A stretch of 64,000 nt of DNA from Thermoplasmatota archaeon. GTDB lineage: Archaea > Thermoplasmatota > Penumbrarchaeia > Penumbrarchaeales > Penumbrarchaeaceae. Under the pieces are notes generated by a model, which was not told the DNA's origin, searched no databases, and saw nothing but the letters and a program-made list of their open reading frames with translations. Positions 2,746 to 43,455 of this stretch are shown here, piece by piece (positions within the stretch are counted from its first letter, which is position 1; every line of letters begins with the position of its first letter). Both the position numbers and the translations under genes were made by a program. The DNA lies in the NCBI GenBank assembly GCA_029762535.1, contig JARVGK010000009.1, positions 32,001-96,000 on the forward strand, in the 5' to 3' direction.

Positions 2746-3915
2746 TCATTGTTGGTCCGTCGCTTCCGTCAGCAGGGTTACGTTCGACCTGGTGAAAAAA
2801 CCGTCGAAGTCCCCGTACCTGTGTATGTATTCGTTGACCAGGAGCGTGTTCTTCGAAGGGACGGTGAAGGTCTGTTTGAGCCCTTCCTTGGGCGATCCGA
2901 TGAGGTCTATGAGGAATCCCTGTGCTCTTTCCTTGAGTTCGATGAAGGCATCCTCGATATTAGGCGTGTCGAACGCTATATGGTGCACCCTCTTGCCGTA
3001 ATTGTATACGAACTTCTCGGTGGGTCCGGAGGAGGAGAGGTCCCTGAAGGGGGAGATCCCCGATGTGAAGACCTGAGCATACCTGCCGCCAGATATCCTG
3101 GCGACGTTCGTGATGGAGTTCATCATCTTGACGTAGATGGCGAAATCGAAGTCGTATTCCGTGAGCTCCATGAACTCTATTATGGCCGGGTCCCGGTGTT
3201 CGGCATGTACCCTGGTCGCGGCATGGTCCAGTCCACCCACCTTCCTTATGGCCGGTAGGTCGGGCTCGTCAAAGGACCACTCGAGGGCCGTATCGTCCGA
3301 GGAAATGTAATCGCCTCTATTCTGATGCCATTGTATGAACCCGATCGAATTGCCCGTGTAGCTCGAAGGCACAGTCTGGATGAAGGAGTAATTGTCCTTG
3401 CGTACGATATCCTCCGTCATGAAATGGACACCTCTTCCATTCTGTATCTCAAAGTACCTGTCGATATCTTTCACGCCGAACACGAACGTCTCCAGCCTCG
3501 TGTTTGGAAGGTGCTGGCTTTTAGGATGGATGTTGTTAGGGAGGAACGGGTTCCCGCCTCCTTTTCTGCTCCTTATAATGAAATCGGCGGATCCCTGCCT
3601 TCTCATGACCGCAGTCCTGTGATCCGGCTCAACGAAGGATCCGCAAAGGCTTAGCCCTGTATTCCCCATCAGTTCGGAAATGGCAGGCTTTTGCCTTTCC
3701 TCCTCAGTATTTATTATAACGCATTCGAGATCGCCTACGAGCCCCGTCAGTCCAGTTTGCTTTCGGGATTCCTTTATGATGCCCATGACGCGTCTGAGGG
3801 CCTCATCGGTGTTCTGGAAAACGACATTGTCGATATTCTTTTTCTGAAGGATCTCGTCGATGTCGCATGAGATGATGTGGTCCTCCATGAGATCGTCGCA
3901 GATCGAACGCTCCAT
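2746..3915 (-). CDS. VOC-superfamily protein, 4-hydroxyphenylpyruvate dioxygenase-like
   Basis: His/His/Glu triad in LDHAA, VHHIAF and NEYIHR; C-terminal LKQTFT...GFF..SN resembles HPPD LLQIFT...GFG.GN. Confidence 0.65.
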   Translation of the reverse strand: MERSICDDLMEDHIISCDIDEILQKKNIDNVVFQNTDEALRRVMGIIKESRKQTGLTGLVGDLECVIINTEEERQKPAISELMGNTGLSLCGSFVEPDHRTAVMRRQGSADFIIRSRKGGGNPFLPNNIHPKSQHLPNTRLETFVFGVKDIDRYFEIQNGRGVHFMTEDIVRKDNYSFIQTVPSSYTGNSIGFIQWHQNRGDYISSDDTALEWSFDEPDLPAIRKVGGLDHAATRVHAEHRDPAIIEFMELTEYDFDFAIYVKMMNSITNVARISGGRYAQVFTSGISPFRDLSSSGPTEKFVYNYGKRVHHIAFDTPNIEDAFIELKERAQGFLIDLIGSPKEGLKQTFTVPSKNTLLVNEYIHRYGDFDGFFTRSNVTLLTEATDQQ

Positions 3916-28057: not shown

Positions 28058-31000
28058 TCATAAATACAATTGACGCGCTGGTCCATTATCGATATAAATT
28101 ATCGGTGCGGTTTTCCATTCATCAATAGGGGATGGCCATTTCTTGTTCCAAGGACATACAAACATATCAGAATCTTTATTTGCCAAGCATGCACTGGTAA
28201 AATAAGCGGCTTCATTGAATGATATAATATAATCTATCAGGTATTGATCCCATATAATATCCCTATTATTATTTACTGAACTCACACCATCAGCATTTAA
28301 AACATCTCTGCCCCATGGATCTTCCTGTGTTAGGTGATTCCCTCGGTCCTCCCCAAATAATTCATTTTCTATATAATAATTAGCTTCATTTTCTCCTTTA
28401 ATTCTACTATAGAACATTACATTGTATCTGTATGATGTATCTGTTTCTCTCGATGAAGTCATAATGATCGATGATATTTCTTTTAGGTCATTAACAAAAC
28501 CACCTGAATAGCAGAAATCTAAAAGGAGTATCGATTCTTTATATGAAATATTTTCCAATTCTTCTTTCAAATCTGTATCCCACCAAATGTATTTAAAGAT
28601 TTGAAATCTTCCTCCGACAATACTATCATAATCCAAATCATCAGATAATCCCACATAATCAAATTTCCTGAATGGATCATCTTCAACAAATTCATGCGTT
28701 GCAAAACCTTCGTCAATATCAATATAATCATCAAGATCCTCTATGTATGCTAAACTGAACTCTCCTTGTCGATCCCCTTCTGCATGTATATCGTCTTGAT
28801 TCAAATCAACTCCAGTCAAATGTAATATCCTTGATGTTGAATTGTAATCATAACAATAATGCATAGTATTATTCTCATCGATCCATGCTGCTTTAACTTG
28901 CGCATCCCATTGATCATTACCCATTGGATTATATCCGTTTGTGTGATTTACTTCTCTAAATGTTCCGTTAATATATAATCTCCACCACCATTCATTTAGA
29001 TTTTGTACTAAATATATTTCTTCCATAATACTGTCATGGTTTATGTCGAATAACCAACAAAAATTTGGATCACCTTTAATATCAGGAAATTCTATAGGAT
29101 CGTTATTAAGAGGTATACCTGGACCTACTTGTTCTTGTAATGTCGTCCTCATAAAATAATATAATTCAATGGCAAATTCCTGTTCACTAATATCAGCAAA
29201 ATCTTCATGTTCATCATAATGATTTTCATCACCATTTAAGACGGTCCTACATCTACCATTTCTCCATCCAAAATCCCATTCTTCCGAATTTTTATCCCAA
29301 ATCGAATTATCATTTACATCTCCGTTATATCTAGGATCATCTTTGTAACCAACACCATGATTCCTTAATTCTATAAATATAATGTCATTCTCATCCAATT
29401 TTGGTACTATGTGATACTCGTCTATTCGTTCATTTATTTCGACTCCTCCTTCGTGATATGTAGTTTTTTGATGATATATACATGCGGGACCTCCATATTC
29501 CAATGCATCCAAAATATTTTTTAAACAGCCTTTATATGGACAACCATCCAACCAATAAGCTGTATCAGAACCACTATTTTTATATTTGTTATCATCTGTA
29601 TCATAAATCCACTCACCCTGAAATTCTTCAGGTGTTAGGTCAAAATAAAAGGACATGAATAAAACATCTTCGTCTTTCCAACCATTTGAAGATAAATAAT
29701 GTCTCATCATGGTAATATCATAAGTAAATTGAATTTCTTTAGGATGAAATATAGGTGCCATTAAAATCGCAATTCTAGAATTATGAATCATTGAATTATA
29801 TTGGATCGAATTATATGATCTTGATATTTCATAACAATCAGATATTCCGTCAGAATCTCTATCCTCTCTGAAATTCTTATAACCAGATGTTATAATAACT
29901 TCATCCATAAACCCATGAAAAAATGGTGTTTGATAAATATCCCCCCATATATTATCAGGACATCCTCCAATGTAATATTTATTTATTTCAGTTTGTACTA
30001 AATTTTCTTCAAAAATAATAGGATCATTACCTGAATAATAACAAAAATGTTTTGAATCCCAAAAACCGTTAATATACATATTTATAGTATCGTATAAATA
30101 ATGTGGTGAATTTTTTCCTTCTATTGAATATGCAACATGAGTCCAATCATAATTTTTTGATAAAAAGCCTTTTGAATAAATAATACTTTCTGTTGAAGTT
30201 TGAATATATAACCTATATCTGTTACCCATCTGTTCATATTTTAAACCAAATACAACAGGATAATTTTGATAATTCTCTGATGAATAAGGACAGACAGATA
30301 TAATTTGATCATCGTTGGTATCTATTATTTTTATCCATGCTTCAAATGTATGAACCCTAGGAATAAACACGTTGCCTACAAGATAATCGTTATTAGAATT
30401 AAAAAACACACATTTCCCGTATTTACCATTATTATTAATTGTTGGTCCTTCTCCTATCATGCCGATTTCACAATCTTCGCTAAAATATGAACTATCGATT
30501 GTAATTGATCCATCGTCAAATGTGAAGTGTTGTTTTATTATATTAACTTTCAAGGCATAATTATATATTTCAAAGTTATCTAACATTCCATGATAACCAT
30601 ATTCATTACCTCTACTACCAATAAAAATATCTTCTTCAGCAGGATATAGATTGATCACACCAAGATCCTTGCTTTTATCCAATTGACCATTTATGTATAT
30701 ATAACCCATCTGATCTTTTAATATGAACTGAATTTTATACCATTTCTCCATGGTTAAAGTACTATTTGAGGTTATTGATATTATCTTTCCATAATCGATA
30801 TTACCAATATCTTTTACAACATCGATCTTTAATTTATTATTGTTTGTGATCATTGCTTGAAATTGGCCTGCTCGATATTGTGGATCAATATATAATTGAT
30901 CATTAATATTAGAGAAAATAATTCTATCATTAGAAAACGGTTTTATATCAAATTTCATTGTCATTTCAGATTTAATATTGAAGCTATTATTATATGGTAT

Positions 31001-33538
31001 TTTTATATATTGTTTTGTTTCATAATCAACATCATCAAAATCAATACAGTTACCTGAAATGCCGTTATTATCCCAATTTGGATTAAAATTCTGCAAATAA
31101 TAGATTGTTGAATCATCAATGTTATCAGGATATGTATCATTTTCATCGACATAAATATAATATAAATCATTATTTTGATCATATCCCATTCCTTTAACTT
31201 CCTTTTCCATTCCTTGATTCGTACCTCCTATTATAGTGACATGAGCATCATAAAGAGGGAAACCGAACGGATAACATGCATATTTATATATCTTATAATC
31301 ATTATCTGAAGTATCTAATGTATTGGCAGCGCGATACATCAATGATTCTCCGAGATAAGCATTATTATTGAAATTAGTTTGATCTGATGATAATGGACCT
31401 CCACCTTCATTGAAATCAAGTTTCAAAACAGGTAATTCTAAATTTATTGGACGATATTTAGTAATAGGAGATTTATAAGAACACATAGTAAATTCATCCA
31501 AAATACCTCTAAAAAATTCATCACCATCACTTCCCAAATATAAAGAATGATATTGTCCGGGACCGGTGTTATTAAAATAATATAACGGATCACCCTGTAT
31601 AATTGAAGAATCATATAATACTCCATCTAAATATATACCAATCATTGGTTCTTGTATATTATCAAGCTGCATATGCAACCCTATTGTTGACCAAGTGTTT
31701 TCTTTATTTAAGTAAGGAGTACTAACAATATTCTCATATAAATTGCCATTATAGTAACTGTTAAATATTAATTTATATCTAATAACTTTTATGTTAGCAT
31801 CCTTTTCTATGATAAGTTTCCAAGATTCATAAGATATGATTAATGAAGTCGTTTCTACATCCATAAAATAAGGAAATACCATTATTTCAATGTGGATATT
31901 ATTATCGTACATACTATATGGATGATAAATATGATATTCAAAACCATTATTATTAAATTCAAACGCTCTTCCGTAGGGCGTAGTAGAGACAATAGATGGA
32001 GGATTATTTATTACATCGAATTGGTTAACATCAATATTATATAGATTTAAAATTGTAGGAGAACCGGAATCCATATTAAAATTAAAATGTTTATTATAAA
32101 TTTCATGATGAATTTCTATATCCTTATTTTTACCAATTATTATTTCATCTAATATTCCACTATAATATGTTGATATTCCGTCATATCCAAAAAATAAACT
32201 ATCATCAGAGAAACCGATTCCATGAATATATTCACAATCAAGATCAATGATCATATTATTATTTTCATCAAATACATCTAAATACATTATATTATCGTAA
32301 TAACGTGCATATAAATGATACCACTGATTCAATGATAATTGGATATTACTTTGTAATTTACCTTCATATTGAATTGGTCCTATCTTATTGTTAATGGAAA
32401 AAGTTAGCAACTCTTGCATACCCAATGATTCATAATATACTTTGTAACCATTGGAATGCCTACCTTCTTGCTGATTATGAGTTTTCGCTATTAAAGTAGC
32501 ATCCTCATATTCAAATTTATAATACCACAATTCTATATATAGATCTTTTCCATCCGGAACGAGTGATAGATCATTTGAATGTGGTATTTCAACACGGGAT
32601 GACAACTGACTTTGAAATTCCAATGATGATATTCCCTTGGCAGGATTATTTGTAAAAAATGCATTACAGAATGTAGATTTATCCTCATGATTCCAAGTAA
32701 TTCGATCATTTACATAAACAGTACCTGGTCCATAATTTTCATCGAAAGTCCAATAACCAACCGTATTATTCATCCAAGGAAAATCTTCAACGATCTCTGT
32801 CCAATGATAATCATCAAATCTACCAAAAAAAGAATTTTGTTCACCCAATATTAAATCACCGTTATTATCCTTTACTTTCATAGAAGATGATTTTTCAGCA
32901 ACACAACCATCATTGCTGTTTGAAGGATCGATATGGATTCTGTATATTCCACCTTCATATGAAAATCCTATAAAATGCCATAAGTTATCAATAAGATCGG
33001 TTTGTGATCGGTCAAATACAACATCGTCATTCCCAATAATATTAGGGTTTATTTGAAAATAAATAACACCGTTAATAATTTCACATATTAAACCACCATT
33101 ATTTATATCATATTTTGAAAAGATACGAGTATTTGCATTACAATATGTATATATTTTAATATTGAAATATATGCACCATTTGACTGAATTTTCAACATTT
33201 AAATTATTATTATCATTAACATAAGCTGATGAAGGATTAACAAATTCAATAGCAAAGTTAGTATCTCTTCCAGCCACCCAATTAGTTGATATCAAATTCA
33301 TTGTATTTCCATTACCCGAATCATCTCGAGTTGTTGAACCAAAACCTTCGTTAAAATAATATTCGGCTTGAATGGAATTATCAAAGAAAAAATAATTTTG
33401 ATCCAATGTTTCTGGAATTGAACTCACAAAAGGTAATAACATAGTAGATATCCATATAAATATGGCAAAATATATTTGGGCAAACCTTCTCCTTTTGTTC
33501 ACCAATTTATCATACCGGCCTTGGTAAATATTTTTCAT
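28058..33538 (-). CDS. Giant AT-rich secreted protein: multiple LamG/ConA-like domains plus C-terminal clan CD (caspase/C13-like) peptidase
   Basis: Repeated F.E..G...D / W.H / F.G.LDE LamG units; ELRNHG and LLDFCYSGGF dyad motifs; GGTGA RBS before ATG 33538. Confidence 0.8.
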   Translation of the reverse strand: MKNIYQGRYDKLVNKRRRFAQIYFAIFIWISTMLLPFVSSIPETLDQNYFFFDNSIQAEYYFNEGFGSTTRDDSGNGNTMNLISTNWVAGRDTNFAIEFVNPSSAYVNDNNNLNVENSVKWCIYFNIKIYTYCNANTRIFSKYDINNGGLICEIINGVIYFQINPNIIGNDDVVFDRSQTDLIDNLWHFIGFSYEGGIYRIHIDPSNSNDGCVAEKSSSMKVKDNNGDLILGEQNSFFGRFDDYHWTEIVEDFPWMNNTVGYWTFDENYGPGTVYVNDRITWNHEDKSTFCNAFFTNNPAKGISSLEFQSQLSSRVEIPHSNDLSLVPDGKDLYIELWYYKFEYEDATLIAKTHNQQEGRHSNGYKVYYESLGMQELLTFSINNKIGPIQYEGKLQSNIQLSLNQWYHLYARYYDNIMYLDVFDENNNMIIDLDCEYIHGIGFSDDSLFFGYDGISTYYSGILDEIIIGKNKDIEIHHEIYNKHFNFNMDSGSPTILNLYNIDVNQFDVINNPPSIVSTTPYGRAFEFNNNGFEYHIYHPYSMYDNNIHIEIMVFPYFMDVETTSLIISYESWKLIIEKDANIKVIRYKLIFNSYYNGNLYENIVSTPYLNKENTWSTIGLHMQLDNIQEPMIGIYLDGVLYDSSIIQGDPLYYFNNTGPGQYHSLYLGSDGDEFFRGILDEFTMCSYKSPITKYRPINLELPVLKLDFNEGGGPLSSDQTNFNNNAYLGESLMYRAANTLDTSDNDYKIYKYACYPFGFPLYDAHVTIIGGTNQGMEKEVKGMGYDQNNDLYYIYVDENDTYPDNIDDSTIYYLQNFNPNWDNNGISGNCIDFDDVDYETKQYIKIPYNNSFNIKSEMTMKFDIKPFSNDRIIFSNINDQLYIDPQYRAGQFQAMITNNNKLKIDVVKDIGNIDYGKIISITSNSTLTMEKWYKIQFILKDQMGYIYINGQLDKSKDLGVINLYPAEEDIFIGSRGNEYGYHGMLDNFEIYNYALKVNIIKQHFTFDDGSITIDSSYFSEDCEIGMIGEGPTINNNGKYGKCVFFNSNNDYLVGNVFIPRVHTFEAWIKIIDTNDDQIISVCPYSSENYQNYPVVFGLKYEQMGNRYRLYIQTSTESIIYSKGFLSKNYDWTHVAYSIEGKNSPHYLYDTINMYINGFWDSKHFCYYSGNDPIIFEENLVQTEINKYYIGGCPDNIWGDIYQTPFFHGFMDEVIITSGYKNFREDRDSDGISDCYEISRSYNSIQYNSMIHNSRIAILMAPIFHPKEIQFTYDITMMRHYLSSNGWKDEDVLFMSFYFDLTPEEFQGEWIYDTDDNKYKNSGSDTAYWLDGCPYKGCLKNILDALEYGGPACIYHQKTTYHEGGVEINERIDEYHIVPKLDENDIIFIELRNHGVGYKDDPRYNGDVNDNSIWDKNSEEWDFGWRNGRCRTVLNGDENHYDEHEDFADISEQEFAIELYYFMRTTLQEQVGPGIPLNNDPIEFPDIKGDPNFCWLFDINHDSIMEEIYLVQNLNEWWWRLYINGTFREVNHTNGYNPMGNDQWDAQVKAAWIDENNTMHYCYDYNSTSRILHLTGVDLNQDDIHAEGDRQGEFSLAYIEDLDDYIDIDEGFATHEFVEDDPFRKFDYVGLSDDLDYDSIVGGRFQIFKYIWWDTDLKEELENISYKESILLLDFCYSGGFVNDLKEISSIIMTSSRETDTSYRYNVMFYSRIKGENEANYYIENELFGEDRGNHLTQEDPWGRDVLNADGVSSVNNNRDIIWDQYLIDYIISFNEAAYFTSACLANKDSDMFVCPWNKKWPSPIDEWKTAPIIYIDNGPARQLYL

Positions 33539-33542
33539 ATTA

Positions 33543-34049
33543 TCACCTTTCTTCCTCAAATAATATCACCGTATCAATTACGGTACATTCTTTCCTATAA
33601 CTAAATTTGATAAACTCCATTAAATAAATTTCATCAAAACTGTTTACAGTCGAATAATTAAGCATAATGGTGATATCGAATAGATTAGAATTATATTCTA
33701 TGATAGTTACCATAAAAGTGATGTTAGGTATATCATAAGTTATTATATCTTGACAGGAATTATCAAATTCATTACCTCTAGAAATTCCGGTATTTAATGG
33801 GCAATATTCTATACGGTTATCAGAATCTAAATTAACATAGAAAATATGCTCTATAATATCGTAAGATGATTCCATCACTCTGATAATCTGCTCAATATCC
33901 CTCCCGCTTGAGATCTTTCTATGATCAACGTACAGATAATTCATCATAAACTCAGAAGTCCATGGAACATCTTCGTAGTTAGCGAATCCCTTTAATGCCG
34001 GATCGCTTCCCACTGCTTGTTTGCTCGGATCACCCGGGATCCCCCTCAT
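33543..34049 (-). CDS. Hypothetical AT-rich protein
   Basis: Open frame in AT-rich DNA ending at the RBS of the LamG gene; start uncertain. Confidence 0.5.
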   Translation of the reverse strand: MRGIPGDPSKQAVGSDPALKGFANYEDVPWTSEFMMNYLYVDHRKISSGRDIEQIIRVMESSYDIIEHIFYVNLDSDNRIEYCPLNTGISRGNEFDNSCQDIITYDIPNITFMVTIIEYNSNLFDITIMLNYSTVNSFDEIYLMEFIKFSYRKECTVIDTVILFEEER

Positions 34050-36828: not shown

Positions 36829-37740
36829 GTGTACATAGAGACCGATCTTCTCGATCGTATAAGCGATCTTAGGTGCAAACTGGATTCGCTCAGGCCACTG
36901 GACAGATCCATACTTGAAAAGTTGTATCATGAGATCGAGATCGACATGACCTACAACTCCACCGCAATCGAAGGGAACACACTGACCGTGAGCGAGACCA
37001 GACGTGTGCTCGAATACGGGATCACAGTGGGTGGAAAGACATTGAGGGAACATCTTGAGGTGACCAATCACCGATCGGCGATGGGGTTCATCGAATCGCT
37101 GGTCTCAAAGCCCCGGATCGAGGTGCTGGACACGCTCAACCTTCACGCCCTGGTCATCGACAGGATCGATCCCGTCAATGCCGGAACGTTAAGGAGGGGG
37201 CGGGTTTACATCTCGGGGTCGTCTTTCATTCCTCCGAAACCTTCGGCGATACCAGAGTTGATGTCCTGTTTCAGCAAGAGGTTCGATCAGAGACCCGAGA
37301 TCGCAGTGGAGGAGGGGGCTCTACTCCATATGGAGTTCGTGAACATACACCCGTTCGTCGATGGGAACGGAAGGTGCGCGAGGCTCCTGCTTAATCTGTA
37401 TTTGATGAGGAACGGCTATCCACCGATCGTCGTCAAGAAGATCGATCGGAAGAGGTACATCGATACCATCGTATCGTCCCAGGTCCGGGGCGATCATGCG
37501 CCCTTCGTGAACTTCGTCGCCATGAACCTGGCCCAGGCACTGGAGCTATGGATAGACGCCTTCTCCAGCGAACCGAAGGACTACATCTCCCTTTTCGAAG
37601 CGGCAAGGAGGAGTAGATACTCCCAGGAATACCTCTCCCTCCTCGCTAGGACGGGGAGGGTCCCTGCCGTAAAGTTCGGCCGGAACTGGAAGATCGCGAT
37701 AGAGGACCTTGAGAGATATGAGCGCGAACATGGTCGATGA
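36829..37740 (+). CDS. Fic family protein with C-terminal excisionase-like HTH
   Basis: HPFVDGNGRCAR; autoinhibitory STAIEGN; C-terminal ISLFEAA...GRVPAVKFGRNWKI. Confidence 0.92.
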   Translation: MYIETDLLDRISDLRCKLDSLRPLDRSILEKLYHEIEIDMTYNSTAIEGNTLTVSETRRVLEYGITVGGKTLREHLEVTNHRSAMGFIESLVSKPRIEVLDTLNLHALVIDRIDPVNAGTLRRGRVYISGSSFIPPKPSAIPELMSCFSKRFDQRPEIAVEEGALLHMEFVNIHPFVDGNGRCARLLLNLYLMRNGYPPIVVKKIDRKRYIDTIVSSQVRGDHAPFVNFVAMNLAQALELWIDAFSSEPKDYISLFEAARRSRYSQEYLSLLARTGRVPAVKFGRNWKIAIEDLERYEREHGR

Positions 37741-38862: not shown

Positions 38863-38933
38863 GATAACTACCCGGGATGTAGAAGGCATATTCTTATAAA
38901 AGGATTTTATAAAAAACCCTCATGAGCCAAGGC

Positions 38934-39055
38934 TCACAACATAGCATGAAGATATCTGTCGGGTTTTTTCGTAAGTCCCTCTCGTCGCTAACACCTCGTT
39001 ACGGGACTTCGAAACCCAGCACAACCATATCGTCGCTTACTCATTACCGTTGTGC
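38934..39055 (+). other. Orphan attC-like long imperfect hairpin
   Basis: Ends CACAAC / GTTGTG; inner arms GATAT/ATATC and GGGTT..TTCGtAAGTCCC / GGGACTT-CGAAACCC. Confidence 0.4.
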
Positions 39056-39108
39056 GGGGGTATGAAGAAAAAACCGCTTCCAAACGTCCTATCTTCATAC
39101 CAATAAGA

Positions 39109-39134
39109 GGGGGCGCCTATCATCGGGCGCCCCC
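39109..39134 (-). terminator. GC-rich hairpin downstream of the small ORF
   Basis: GGGGGCGCC-N8-GGCGCCCCC followed by TCTT on the minus strand. Confidence 0.55.
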
Positions 39135-39146
39135 GGGGATACGGGC

Positions 39147-39332
39147 TCAGCAGTGGGGGAATCTGTATGGATACATGTTGTTGAGCCGGTACCAGACACC
39201 CCATTCTTCCTCGAAGAGGTCGGGTTTCCACGGTTGGACAGCTTCCATCTTCTTCACCTCCTTATCCTTCAAGAGATCCCGGGGATCCTCGGAGGCGTCG
39301 CTAGGTATATATATTACGTATTCCCATACCAT
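39147..39332 (-). CDS. Small hypothetical protein (61 aa, MVWEY...RFPHC)
   Basis: Has its own promoter/leader upstream and a hairpin downstream; no recognised motif. Confidence 0.55.
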   Translation of the reverse strand: MVWEYVIYIPSDASEDPRDLLKDKEVKKMEAVQPWKPDLFEEEWGVWYRLNNMYPYRFPHC

Positions 39333-39335
39333 ACC

Positions 39336-39400
39336 TGAGGATCCAGGACCTTTCCCCGGGGCCGTTACCATTCCGCGGGGGAAGGTCTCCTCGAACTCTC
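39336..39400 (-). ncRNA. Candidate structured leader RNA, copy A
   Basis: Homologous to 40246-40312; hairpin retained despite stem changes; apical AAUGGUAACGGC. Confidence 0.5.
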
Positions 39401-39623
39401 TACTTCTTACATGACCTTACCTACTTATAAGCTATACCCATCAAGTTATAGGTTTTTAGAGGGTTATATATAATTTTTCCATCCTACAAAGGGGAAATAC
39501 CTTTTGCCAGCAAAGTGTAGCGGATCCCTGACCGACGATGATATAGCTTCCTTTCTGTCGGCATGGTCAACGGATCCCCGAAGCGCATAATCCAAAGATG
39601 ATGAGATCATCCCATAGGATCAA

Positions 39624-39661
39624 CAAAAATAAAAAAAAATGGGCCGGAGATATTCCGGCCC
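39624..39661 (-). terminator. Hairpin plus U-tract terminator after the ATP-cone gene
   Basis: GGGCCGGA-N5-TCCGGCCC then a long T run on the minus strand. Confidence 0.7.
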
Positions 39662-39682
39662 GGGGTTTTTAGGGGGGCTATC

Positions 39683-40165
39683 TCATGCTTCGGCCATCTT
39701 CCTAACGGCCACCAACGAAGAGCCGCTGACCTCAAGGAAGCCCAGATCGCTTCTTCCGAGGTATATCGCATTGCTCTTGTAGTGCGGGTCCTCGATCCTG
39801 TAGGCCCTCAGGGCCTTCCTGTTCCATCCGCTGTAGGCCTCAACCACCTGGCCGTTCTTCACGCCGAGCCTATCCATGGTCTCGGGAGACATCAGGCAGT
39901 TCCCGTTGATCCCCGTTACGCTGGGGTCGATCTCCAGGTCCCTGGTCGTGAAGTACCTCCTTGCGAGTTCGGGATCTATCTTCTTCAGAGAGGTTCCGAT
40001 CCTCCTCCTCACATCCCGCGTGGTCATTCCCTTTTTGAAGCCGACAGCCTTCACTACGTTCCTCGCGGTCCCCTTGTCCACGCCGAGAACGATCATCGAC
40101 CTCATCATCTTCGCCCTGCTGTACCTCTCTATGCTGCCGTCCATCTTCCTTATCGTCTTCACCAT
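39683..40165 (-). CDS. ATP-cone protein with C-terminal double-psi-barrel-like domain
   Basis: IRKMDGSIERYSRAKM...TTRDVR; LMSPETMDRLGVKNGQVV; GGTGA RBS before ATG 40165. Confidence 0.72.
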   Translation of the reverse strand: MVKTIRKMDGSIERYSRAKMMRSMIVLGVDKGTARNVVKAVGFKKGMTTRDVRRRIGTSLKKIDPELARRYFTTRDLEIDPSVTGINGNCLMSPETMDRLGVKNGQVVEAYSGWNRKALRAYRIEDPHYKSNAIYLGRSDLGFLEVSGSSLVAVRKMAEA

Positions 40166-40245
40166 TTCCTTCACCTTCCTGAAGGGTCGCGGAGAAGGAA
40201 AAGGCGGAGGCTCCGCTCATCGAGCAAAGCTGGTCATCTCCGCCT

Positions 40246-40312
40246 TGTGAGATCCAGGCCCACTCCCCCGGGCCGTTACCCATTCCGGGGAGAGAGGTCT
40301 CCTCGACCACCT
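40246..40312 (-). ncRNA. Candidate structured leader RNA, copy B
   Basis: Homologous to copy A; same 30-nt distance from a TTATAA box. Confidence 0.5.
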
Positions 40313-40411
40313 CTGAGGATAAGATGGGCCTCAAGGTTATAAAAGCCTTCCCTTCAACTAGTATTTTTTTTTAAGGGGATATATAATATTTTCCATGTCT
40401 TGAACTTCGAT

Positions 40412-41005
40412 CTATTCCCTGCCGAAAAATACCCAATTGAGTACGTACCCCACCTTTTTTAACCGCATCCTCTCCCTATCCACGCTCTCGGATAGTATGC
40501 GGTCCCCAGTGAACAGGGCGCTGACATCGAACGGGTCATCGATCTTTGGTTCTCCGTCGGCCCTGGAAGTATATACGATCAACCTGCCCTTCCCGACAAG
40601 AGCGTCGGCGAAGATGTCGGATCCGGGCCCCCTTAAGAAGATCTTCACGGAGGCACAGGGCATGCCCTCGATGAACCCGGAAATCCTTTCGAGGGGGAGG
40701 TCCCCCTCGTCGAGGAGCATCCTCCCTTCCGCGAATATCGAATCCAGATAGATGATGCATTCATTTAACACACCGGTCCTCATGTGGGAAGCGGATAGCA
40801 CTTTTAGAAGGTTGCTGGGAGTGGGGGGCAGGTCGGAATATTGCATATCCTCCGGAGCGAGCAACGTGATGTCAGAGGGGCCGAGATACCCGTTCGTGGT
40901 CAGGATCTCGAAAAGGCGGGATCCCGATCCCGAGAGCTCGTCGCGTTCCCTTCCGCCGGGGCAATATATCAGAAACGCCGCCTGTTGATAGTTCTCATCC
41001 ATCAT
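40412..41005 (-). CDS. Caspase/C13-fold protein lacking both catalytic residues
   Basis: LFEILTTNGY..SDITLL, PTPSNL, CIIYLDSI (no His), IFLRGPGS (no Cys), RLIVYTSRADGE. Confidence 0.6.
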   Translation of the reverse strand: MMDENYQQAAFLIYCPGGRERDELSGSGSRLFEILTTNGYLGPSDITLLAPEDMQYSDLPPTPSNLLKVLSASHMRTGVLNECIIYLDSIFAEGRMLLDEGDLPLERISGFIEGMPCASVKIFLRGPGSDIFADALVGKGRLIVYTSRADGEPKIDDPFDVSALFTGDRILSESVDRERMRLKKVGYVLNWVFFGRE

Positions 41006-41142
41006 TATCCCATTCCCTTGGCCGCGATCATCGATCTAAATTGAACGAGCTGGAAATGGAGCAAAGCATGCTCCTTTATGAAGCTGATCCGATAAATTAT
41101 ACTCTAATAGAGGGTCTTATAAGGTTTTCCCTCCCGCGCATC

Positions 41143-41751
41143 TCAAGGAGGACAGATCTGAGGGGTCTGTCCGGATCCCTGGAGCCGTAAGCACTCCTTA
41201 TTGTACGCATCTCTCCAGTTAGGAGGGCAGCTATTGAAATGTAACTCCAGGTGGAGATCGTCAGGGTCCTTGGTTTCATTTGAGGACATGGATGTTATCA
41301 CGAACCTGTCATCCTTGCATAACGGTTGCAGGGCCCTCCCGGACTTTTGACCCCGAACGGTAATGCAGCAGTCCGTATACACCATATTGGATGGTTGCAT
41401 CCATTCATATATTTGTGCGTATGTCAGCTCGTAGTTAGGGTCTCCGTTCTTGAAAGTGAATTTTCCATCGGTCATTTGAGAATGATCGTCTATCACGATC
41501 CACATATTATCCGTGGGACCCACAAGGAATCCATGCGGTTGCATCTGGCTGTGATCGAAGCACTTGTCCCTGAGGGTAACAAAGTCACAGTCCCCATCGT
41601 AATACTGACCCAGGAACGGATCGCTTTGAATAGAGATGGGCCCGTATATCTTTATCGGGTCGTAACAATTGTCCTTGAGCGCACCGCTGACACTCTTTTT
41701 AAGATCGGAAATATCCTTCCCATATGCCCATATGAATGCCGCTTTTCCCAT
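41143..41751 (-). CDS. Caspase/C13-fold protein with His retained and Cys replaced by Gln
   Basis: DNMWIVIDDHS, ELTYAQIYEW, ITVRGQKSG, RFVITSMSSNE and C-terminal QTPQI. Confidence 0.62.
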   Translation of the reverse strand: MGKAAFIWAYGKDISDLKKSVSGALKDNCYDPIKIYGPISIQSDPFLGQYYDGDCDFVTLRDKCFDHSQMQPHGFLVGPTDNMWIVIDDHSQMTDGKFTFKNGDPNYELTYAQIYEWMQPSNMVYTDCCITVRGQKSGRALQPLCKDDRFVITSMSSNETKDPDDLHLELHFNSCPPNWRDAYNKECLRLQGSGQTPQICPP

Positions 41752-42004: not shown

Positions 42005-42090
42005 TTCAAGCACCTCACACTTCCTGCGAAGGTCGAAAAAAAAGAATGGGATATACCTTTATCGGCTTAAATTATAACTTTTTTAATAGG

Positions 42091-43455
42091 TTATATAATA
42101 TTTTCCACTCCCTCGAAGCCCTTCTCCCTCGCTCTCTTTATGATCTCCTCGCGGAAGATCACCAGCTCCTTCTCGGTAGGGAGGGGAAAGGCCACCTCCT
42201 TGCATTTGGCAAAATGTTCCAGAGCCTTATCGAGATCTCTCATCTCTATGTAGAGAAGGGCGTAGTTGAGTTCAACGATGGCCAGGCCCTCGTAATCGTT
42301 GTACGAGCTGAATATTTCATGGGCCCTCTTGAGGTATCCCTTGGAAAGGTCGAACTTGCCCTTCTTCATGGCAATATCGGCGAGGTTCGGCATTACCTTG
42401 GCCTCGGCGAATTCGCTCCTGGCCTCCCTTGCGTACTTTCTCGCCTTTAACCAGTCGCTCTCTGCCTCATCGTCTCTCTCGAGGATGAAGAACGTGACAC
42501 CTCTCACGTTATAGGCCATGGCAAGGAAGAGGGACAACCCGTGTATGCTGAACGAGCTGATCGCTGAACGTAATAGCTCGGAATACTCCTCTCGGTCTCC
42601 CATGAAGAAAAGGATGACCCCCTTGTTCATCTTTACCAAAGATAAGCATATCCTGTTCTCGACCGTCATGAGCATGTCGTTGAGAATCGAGAGGGCCTCC
42701 TCGTCCCTGTTCTGTTTTCGAAGGAGATGCACCTGGTCTATCTTGATTATGAACCATTGATTGTAGTTAAGGTCCGTCCTGTCCGTTAGAAGGTGGTTAA
42801 GGATCATGGAGCAGTCCTCGAACTTCCCCATCCTCATCTTCGCCTCGGCCAGTATGATAAGGGCATCTATGTCCTCCTTCCTCCAGATGTCCGATGTGAC
42901 TATATCCTTGTCTATCTCGCCGTACAGAGATGCGTTGAAGAACGTCTCGACGAATGACTCATGTCTGGTCCCGCACGGGTTCGCATCGATGTTCGAGAAT
43001 ATGTTCAGAAGCGTCGTGTCCTCTCTCGACACCTTCATCGTGTTGAGGAACATGGGCAGGTCGAAATATTTGTTCTGGGTGTAGAGCGCCAGGAAGAATA
43101 TCCTCTCCATGATGTCGTTGATCTTCCTAAGGATCGTCCTGACCTCTATGCACGAGGGGATGCTGTGCCTCTCCTCGGTCAGGACCATGGAATCGATCAT
43201 GGAATCGATCTGCGTGACCCTTCTCATCCCCTCCCGGGTCAGATCCGTGGTGCCCCTGATATCGGGGGCGAATTTCTTCTTGGTCCTGGTTATGAGCCCA
43301 TCGGACCTCAACCGGGTCATGTACAAATTCAGCGTACTATCCGAGATCCCCAAAGCGTTCGCGAGCTGGTCCTTCCTGTAGTTCTGGTCCGGCTTGCCAT
43401 CCTTCGATATCAGATATATCGAGAATAGCACCAGGTCCTCTTTGCCCAGCTTCAT
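42091..43455 (-). CDS. wHTH plus TPR transcriptional regulator
   Basis: KDQLANALGISDSTLNLYMTRL..DGLI...LTREG; C-terminal TPR helices. Confidence 0.82.
   Translation of the reverse strand: MKLGKEDLVLFSIYLISKDGKPDQNYRKDQLANALGISDSTLNLYMTRLRSDGLITRTKKKFAPDIRGTTDLTREGMRRVTQIDSMIDSMVLTEERHSIPSCIEVRTILRKINDIMERIFFLALYTQNKYFDLPMFLNTMKVSREDTTLLNIFSNIDANPCGTRHESFVETFFNASLYGEIDKDIVTSDIWRKEDIDALIILAEAKMRMGKFEDCSMILNHLLTDRTDLNYNQWFIIKIDQVHLLRKQNRDEEALSILNDMLMTVENRICLSLVKMNKGVILFFMGDREEYSELLRSAISSFSIHGLSLFLAMAYNVRGVTFFILERDDEAESDWLKARKYAREARSEFAEAKVMPNLADIAMKKGKFDLSKGYLKRAHEIFSSYNDYEGLAIVELNYALLYIEMRDLDKALEHFAKCKEVAFPLPTEKELVIFREEIIKRAREKGFEGVENII

What the first reader, a model, noticed from the sequence alone, without database searches (positions are those of the whole stretch)
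39336..40345. Duplicated structured leader RNA: candidate archaeal riboswitch-like motif
Seen on the minus strand: A = tcgaggagaccttcccccgcggAATGGTAACGGCcccggggaaaggtcctggatcctca; B = tcgaggagacctctctccccggAATGGGTAACGGCccgggggagtgggcctggatctca. Both begin exactly 30 nt after a TTATAA box. The stems differ yet still pair, while the apical region (possible GUAA GNRA tetraloop) and base are conserved. Indels break the reading frame, so the constraint is not protein-level. The copies lead two unrelated genes (a 61-aa ORF and the ATP-cone gene). Established: few riboswitch classes are known in archaea. Inference: a cis-regulatory or small RNA; it matches no Rfam family I recognise.
Basis: partly seen in the sequence, partly recalled or inferred. 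Interest (0 to 1): 0.75.

Follow-up and report, generated by a model that had tools for sequence, protein, structure and literature searches.

The report
Two-state archaeal leader RNA before micropeptide
In one family of sediment archaea, a conserved 150-base stretch at the front of certain messenger RNAs can fold in two ways, one hiding and one exposing the ribosome's landing site, and so probably works as an on/off switch for a tiny undescribed protein; what flips it is not known.

Summary
The two hairpins are real, sit 30 nt after TATA boxes, and match no Rfam family. They are only the inner part of a ~150-nt leader RNA. I found 22 copies, all in or beside one Thermoplasmatota family. Eighteen lead a conserved 26-45 aa peptide gene, usually next to a wHTH-TPR regulator gene. 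Four lead an ATP-cone gene. The leader is under stronger selection than the neighbouring protein gene (147/148 nt versus 80%). Covariation supports two exclusive folds: a local bulged hairpin, and a three-way junction that frees the Shine-Dalgarno sequence. Folding of growing transcripts predicts junction first, blocked state later. That argues against a metabolite aptamer and for a translational switch read by a shared protein or RNA. A kink-turn reading (L7Ae), a cis-antisense RNA and a true riboswitch remain open. No RNA data exist, so transcription and switching are inferred. The scan had not noted this on other DNA.

The parts
39249..39400 (-). Leader A, about 150 nt from inferred transcription start to the peptide start codon
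   Evidence: Start inferred 30 nt from TATA; homologous layout in 18 peptide leaders
39336..39394 (-).
   Evidence: 57/58 nt identical in ortholog L154
39271..39290 (-). 3' strands of the three-way junction in A: P3 partner (39283-39290 with 39337-39344) and P1 partner (39271-39278 with 39393-39400)
   Evidence: SD-open fold; 54/56 nt identical in L154 over 39249-39304
39304..39317 (.). AT-rich box in leader A: 3' arm of an inner hairpin, and TATA-like on either strand (possible antisense or internal promoter)
   Evidence: PWM 9.1 bits antisense, 9.6 sense here; weak or absent in most other genera and in B
39254..39261 (-). Shine-Dalgarno sequence of the peptide gene
   Evidence: conserved in alignment A5
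39147..39248 (-). 33-aa peptide gene; conserved 13-15 residue C-terminal core, variable N-terminal half
   Evidence: 17 loci in 12 family genomes; 208 synonymous codon differences in the core
39109..39134 (-). Terminator-like hairpin after the peptide gene
   Evidence: hairpin or T-run after most homologs
39425..39473 (-). Double-TATA promoter block of A (proximal 39425-39430, distal about 39464-39473)
   Evidence: both boxes kept in nearly all 22 leaders
40166..40313 (-). Leader B, about 148 nt, ahead of the ATP-cone gene
   Evidence: 147/148 nt identical in L154 where the CDS is 80% identical; structure kept with changed sequence in L156, L157
40248..40306 (-).
40181..40195 (-). P1 3' strand of B; pairs with the 5' end (40298-40313) or helps form structures over the SD and start codon
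40337..40386 (-). Double-TATA promoter block of B
39683..40165 (-). 160-aa protein with weak ATP-cone and double-psi-barrel-like matches
   Evidence: Pfam PF03477 E 0.004, PF01568 E 0.0005, both under cut-off
42091..43455 (-). wHTH-TPR putative regulator, the recurrent neighbour of the peptide genes
   Evidence: within 3 kb of 12 of 14 peptide loci with context

Best explanation
The element is a cis-acting translational switch in a ~150-nt 5' leader. SHOWN by comparison and folding: two exclusive structures are conserved. State II is a three-way junction: the 5' end pairs with that same strand (P1), the hairpin's upper stem stays (P2), and the old bulge and lower-helix strand pair with a downstream partner (P3), so the SD is free. 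INFERRED: during transcription the hairpin forms first, the single-stranded bulge and 5' end act as toeholds, the junction forms just before the SD appears and gives a window for ribosome loading, and the full message then relaxes to the blocked state. INFERRED, weaker: the balance is set by one trans-acting macromolecule (protein or RNA) per genome, which would explain why paralogous leaders share their apical loop. The native output is a small soluble peptide that probably modulates the neighbouring wHTH-TPR regulator (from gene context only). One genus copied the leader onto an ATP-cone gene.
For: Selection: B leader 147/148, A hairpin 57/58, A 3' strands 54/56 identical, against 80% for the CDS and 59-72% for flanks; a further contig shows no listed change across A's hairpin amid flanking changes. 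Long-range P1 of 8 or more pairs in 20/22 leaders, versus 80/550 flank-shuffled and 9/51 other SD-led regions. Cognate strands are the best of 5040 group permutations for P1, P2 and P3. State I lower helix 84.5% paired with double changes; state II helices beat all slid controls. The two states lie within about 10 kcal/mol, mostly under 7. Prefix folding: junction dominant before the SD emerges, SD open at emergence in 19/22, SD mostly blocked after the start codon in 14/22. Apex 13-16/18 identical between paralogs in four genomes while arms are as low as 4/10.
Against: No transcript, probing or reporter data. Folding is equilibrium-based, and strand windows were chosen after seeing the folds. 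SD-blocking pairs show no double changes because the SD is fixed, and are G-U rich. In copy A itself the SD is predicted blocked already at emergence. In the seven g5 leaders alone covariation does not beat shuffles. Loop sharing could be gene conversion. Two peptide genes lack the leader (L226, L231). No trans partner was identified.
Confidence: 0.5

Rival explanations
1. The conserved base is a kink-turn bound by L7Ae; binding holds state I and represses translation, as in archaeal l7ae leaders.
For: A 3-nt bulge followed by tandem G.A and A.G can be drawn in 21/22 copies, with -1b:-1n = C:G in all and 3n = G. These are the features that favour folding in PMC6298567. Two changes (3b to C in L218/L219, to A in L227) break the Watson-Crick register but keep this one. 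The genome encodes L7Ae. L7Ae binds k-turns in archaeal mRNA leaders (PMC5539422).
Against: The non-canonical helix is poor: 4b:4n is C.A in 15/22 and usually only 2 of 4 further pairs form. A competing Watson-Crick register gives 5-7 pairs and carries the compensatory change. L1 and L2 are pyrimidines, unlike Kt-7 (own knowledge). One copy lacks the motif. It does not explain the shared loops.
Confidence: 0.15
2. The peptide is a toxin or stress peptide controlled by a cis-antisense RNA made from the internal AT box across the hairpin (type I toxin-antitoxin-like, or like the Methanosarcina spRNA/asRNA pairs); the antisense RNA of A also acts on B.
For: Small ORF, long structured leader with anti-SD, own terminator. 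TATA-like box on the opposite strand at a fixed 20-22 nt from the hairpin, scoring 9.1 and 9.5 bits in A and its ortholog and absent in B. Purine runs at the 5' end would read as T-rich terminators on that strand. The hairpin folds better antisense in 14 of 18 A-type copies but in none of the B-type.
Against: The box scores near or below zero in all g5, g2 and g7 copies and is also the arm of an inner hairpin. The peptide has no hydrophobic helix (best 19-residue mean hydropathy -0.7 to 1.0). Paralogs share loops, whereas type I pairs usually diverge to stay insulated (own knowledge). Peptide genes exist without the leader.
Confidence: 0.13
3. A metabolite- or ion-sensing riboswitch: ligand binds the three-way junction and stabilises the SD-open state.
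For: Topology matches translational ON switches such as the V. vulnificus add riboswitch, where P1 excludes SD-blocking helices (PMC5847336). The invariant bases, including a G.U pair in 20/20 rows, cluster at the junction. One output is an ATP-cone-like protein.
Against: Only about 8 invariant bases, most pairing in both states; almost no unpaired joining strands; loops not conserved; range limited to one family; no metabolic or transport genes downstream; no Rfam match.
Confidence: 0.12
4. One stable fold (the junction) that protects the short message or serves as a dual-function small RNA, with state I only a folding intermediate.
For: P1 and P3 are the best-supported long-range helices; B-type and g2 leaders stay mostly SD-open at equilibrium.
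Against: The lower helix covaries on its own and most A-type messages end SD-blocked.
Confidence: 0.08
5. Decayed mobile repeat or neutral promoter-region duplication.
For: Two copies 911 nt apart; a real dispersed repeat lies nearby.
Against: Only two copies in the genome, fixed position between TATA and SD in 22 cases, stronger conservation than coding DNA, compensatory changes.
Confidence: 0.02

Closest known systems
Levivirus (MS2) maturation-gene 5' UTR (PMC4615214)
   Same: Long leader with exclusive folds; a transient structure is thought to open the SD before the final blocked state
   Different: Here cellular, archaeal, promoter-driven; the open state is the multi-helix junction, not a small metastable hairpin; no sequence relation tested
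V. vulnificus add adenine riboswitch (PMC5847336)
   Same: P1 formed by the 5' end competes with SD-blocking helices; three-way junction in the ON state
   Different: No purine-aptamer joining strands or conserved loop-loop contact; no Rfam hit; no ligand-related gene
Type I toxin-antitoxin mRNAs (T1TAdb, PMC8594479)
   Same: Small ORF, anti-SD, 5' stem-loops, terminator, several copies per genome
   Different: Peptide not hydrophobic; antisense promoter only in some copies; long-range pairing is 5' end to pre-SD, not to the 3' end; paralogs share loops
L7Ae-regulated k-turn leaders of archaea (PMC5539422, PMC6298567)
   Same: Archaeal leader hairpin in which a k-turn can be drawn; translational control near an SD
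   Different: Motif lies about 80 nt from the SD and acts, if at all, through refolding; competing Watson-Crick register; stable rather than weak hairpin
RRNPP receptor-propeptide pairs (PMC10075063), for the peptide and its neighbour
   Same: Small peptide gene beside a 250-500 aa HTH-TPR gene; conserved C-terminal part
   Different: No basic-hydrophobic export signal; archaeal; often not directly adjacent; binding untested
Methanosarcina spRNA/asRNA pairs (10.1101/2025.10.28.685009)
   Same: Archaeal short transcripts encoding small proteins
   Different: Antisense partner not demonstrated here; no membrane helix

Membership tests
Any Rfam 15 family | Covariance-model match at gathering score | tested here: not met
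Metabolite riboswitch | Position in a 5' UTR with an expression platform | tested here: met
   between TATA and SD in 22/22; exclusive folds
Metabolite riboswitch | Conserved unpaired core bases forming a ligand pocket | tested here: inconclusive
   about 8 invariant junction bases, most paired in both states; loops variable
Metabolite riboswitch | Downstream genes related to one ligand | tested here: not met
   peptide in 18, ATP-cone-like in 4
Metabolite riboswitch | Direct, specific ligand binding that changes structure | not testable with these tools
   needs in-line probing
Standard kink-turn | 3-nt bulge followed by tandem G.A and A.G pairs | tested here: met
   21/22
Standard kink-turn | Paired non-canonical helix in that register | tested here: not met
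   mostly 2 of 4 pairs; 3 of 4 only in g2 and g3; Watson-Crick register covaries instead
Standard kink-turn | L7Ae binding | not testable with these tools
   gene present; binding needs EMSA
Type I toxin-antitoxin | Small ORF with SD sequestered by cis elements | tested here: met
   (prediction only)
Type I toxin-antitoxin | Hydrophobic, membrane-type toxin peptide | tested here: not met
   best hydropathy window at most 0.96
Type I toxin-antitoxin | Cis-antisense RNA with own promoter | tested here: inconclusive
   good TATA score in 5 of 18 A-type copies; no RNA runs
RRNPP system | Peptide of 10-100 aa and TPR receptor of 250-500 aa | tested here: met
   26-45 aa; about 454 aa with TPR
RRNPP system | Export signal on the propeptide | tested here: not met
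   acidic or polar N-terminus, no hydrophobic stretch; SignalP not available
RRNPP system | Directly adjacent genes | tested here: inconclusive
   adjacent in about 7 of 14 loci, within 3 kb in 12
Archaeal SECIS | In-frame UGA to recode and a selenocysteine tRNA | tested here: not met
   peptide stops vary among all three codons; no tRNA-Sec in the aragorn list
Box C/D or H/ACA guide RNA | Consensus boxes and guide geometry | tested here: not met
   no conserved boxes in alignment A6; best Rfam snoR9 score 13 against 90
MITE | Dispersed copies with terminal repeats, no positional rule | tested here: not met

The most novel reading that the evidence does not exclude
A new natural archaeal riboswitch class: a ligand (nucleotide, second messenger or ion) binds the conserved three-way junction and turns on a peptide that regulates a TPR transcription factor, giving an RNA-gated peptide signalling circuit in archaea.
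Probability: 0.12. Interest if true: 0.88.

Novelty: new variant of a known kind. Interest (0 to 1): 0.58.

Why it matters
Natural cis-regulatory RNA switches are almost unknown in archaea; a 2021 paper lists the fluoride riboswitch as the only one tested (PMC8241225), besides L7Ae k-turn leaders. This is an undescribed family with comparative support for two exclusive folds, a clear mutational test, and an unannotated conserved micropeptide tied to a TPR regulator. It also shows a regulatory leader being copied onto a second gene and kept in step at its loop. The limits: one uncultured family, and no trigger identified.

Tried and rejected
Rfam at two thresholds: nothing. blastn of copy A in 40 relatives: only short chance hits. 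Exact-pattern scans of genome contigs and metagenome contigs: zero or chance hits without the stem. Leaders of distant ATP-cone homologs lack the motif. Three covariance models over the class and 150 phylum genomes, and the peptide profile over 400: nothing credible outside the family among those searched. Search for a separate RNA complementary to the loop: none in three genomes; one partial loop match before an unrelated gene on C58 is treated as chance. Sequencing runs: no RNA holder listed. Complex prediction of TPR domain with peptide: no verdict. One search used a mis-registered structure string and is void; one search replaces it. GNRA tetraloop, SECIS, snoRNA, MITE and the 61/74-aa reading frames were rejected as given in the membership table and observation check. 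Literature searches found no description of this family.

Full report
Observation. Both copies are present on the minus strand at 39336-39394 and 40248-40306, each 30 nt after a TATA hexamer. They are the only two copies in the 2.96-Mb genome. Rfam 15 has no match. A same-family genome is labelled Thermoplasmatota, and close relatives come from sediment metagenomes.

Homologs. Close homologs of the ATP-cone-like protein gave four syntenic contigs. In L154 the ATP-cone gene is 80% identical to the window, but leader B is 147/148 identical, the A hairpin 57/58 and A's 3' strands 54/56, while flanks are 59-72%. A covariance model from five copies found seven more in the same family. All seven lead a short ORF homologous to the 33-aa ORF behind A. 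A profile of that peptide found 17 loci in 12 of 24 family genomes and none elsewhere among 400 phylum genomes. Fourteen of these carry the leader, two do not, and one is cut off. With metagenome contigs the set is 22 leaders: 18 before the peptide, 4 before the ATP-cone gene. A full-leader model separates them (65 bits or more) from background (26 bits or less) and finds no new member in the class.

What is conserved. The GNRA loop is lost in L156 and L157, and most genera share only 3-8 of 18 apex bases; one other genus shares 13. Within a genome, however, paralogs share 13-16 of 18 even where their stem arms are 4/10 alike. This holds in four genomes of three genera. Family-wide invariants are about eight bases at the hairpin base.

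Two folds. State I is the local hairpin: lower helix, one-sided 3' bulge, upper stem. Its lower helix is 84.5% paired with double changes, and the alignment fold pairs the SD with a pyrimidine-rich strand. When the SD is held open, nearly every leader forms the same three-way junction. The 5' end pairs with the pre-SD strand in 8 or more pairs in 20/22 leaders, against 15% of flank-shuffled and 18% of other SD-led regions. Across seven sequence groups the cognate strands are the best of 5040 permutations for P1, P2 and P3. The groups are related and the windows were chosen after inspection, so this is not a clean probability. The two states share strands and cannot coexist. Folding of growing transcripts gives hairpin, then junction, then an open SD at emergence in 19/22, then a mostly blocked SD in 14/22 once the start codon region is made. 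Copy A is an exception, blocked at emergence.

The output. The peptide is real by evolutionary signs: full SD, synonymous variation in its core, all three stop codons. It is not hydrophobic and has no export signal and no Pfam match. Twelve of 14 loci with context lie within 3 kb of a wHTH-TPR gene, of which genomes hold 1-4. About 200-aa neighbours look like C13/caspase-fold proteins. All promoters have two TATA boxes about 41-44 nt apart; P1 ends where a start from the proximal box would lie.

Mechanism. Most likely a translational switch with a kinetic window, tuned by a shared protein or RNA that reads the loop or junction (0.5). The two-state leader itself I put at about 0.8; the trigger is the weak link. 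A k-turn can be drawn in 21/22 copies and L7Ae is encoded, but the competing register carries the covariation (0.15). An antisense TATA scores well in only 5 of 18 A-type copies (0.13). A ligand-binding junction is possible but has few free conserved bases and no ligand-related genes (0.12).

Comparison and novelty. It works like the MS2 maturation leader (PMC4615214), the add riboswitch platform (PMC5847336) and type I toxin leaders (PMC8594479), but fails a defining test for each family that could be tested. I found no description of it. I rate it a new variant of a known kind, interest 0.58. Transcription, switching and peptide function are all untested.

Noticed in passing
window 38920-39110: A ~190-nt hairpin-rich dispersed repeat with at least 8 partial or full copies elsewhere in the genome; absent from ortholog L154, so a MITE-like insertion.
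   Followed up: partly
window 39437-39478, 40350-40391, 41088-41129, 42064-42105: Four related double-TATA promoter blocks; in relatives an A-run and T-run inverted repeat often lies between the boxes, a possible operator for the wHTH-TPR protein.
   Followed up: partly
window 40412-41005 and 41143-41751: Two ~200-aa proteins with no Pfam hit; the 202-aa one resembles C13/caspase-fold clusters. Homologs recur beside wHTH-TPR genes in the family.
   Followed up: partly
L226 (G012) and L231 (G022): Peptide genes without the hairpin: one keeps the 3' half of the leader and has a canonical sense TATA at the internal box; the other has a short leader.
   Followed up: partly
G000 contig C58, about 28575-28625: Short leader before an unrelated membrane-protein gene holds a near copy of the apex of B inside a hairpin next to the SD; possibly chance.
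   Followed up: partly
window 40214-40317 (run X13 record 8): A metagenome contig carries a near-identical B leader behind a different upstream sequence.
   Followed up: no
window 28058-33559: AT-rich 1833-aa ORF, with what look like repeated laminin-G-like domains and a C-terminal His/Cys clan-CD-like motif; composition differs from the flanks.
   Followed up: no
window 36829-37740: Fic-domain gene (ortholog in L154 has PF02661 and a weak HTH_17) convergent with the M29 aminopeptidase gene.
   Followed up: no
L162, about 2780-2840 (minus): Metagenome hit with all three short sequence marks of the window's motif but no stem and no peptide; treated as chance.
   Followed up: partly
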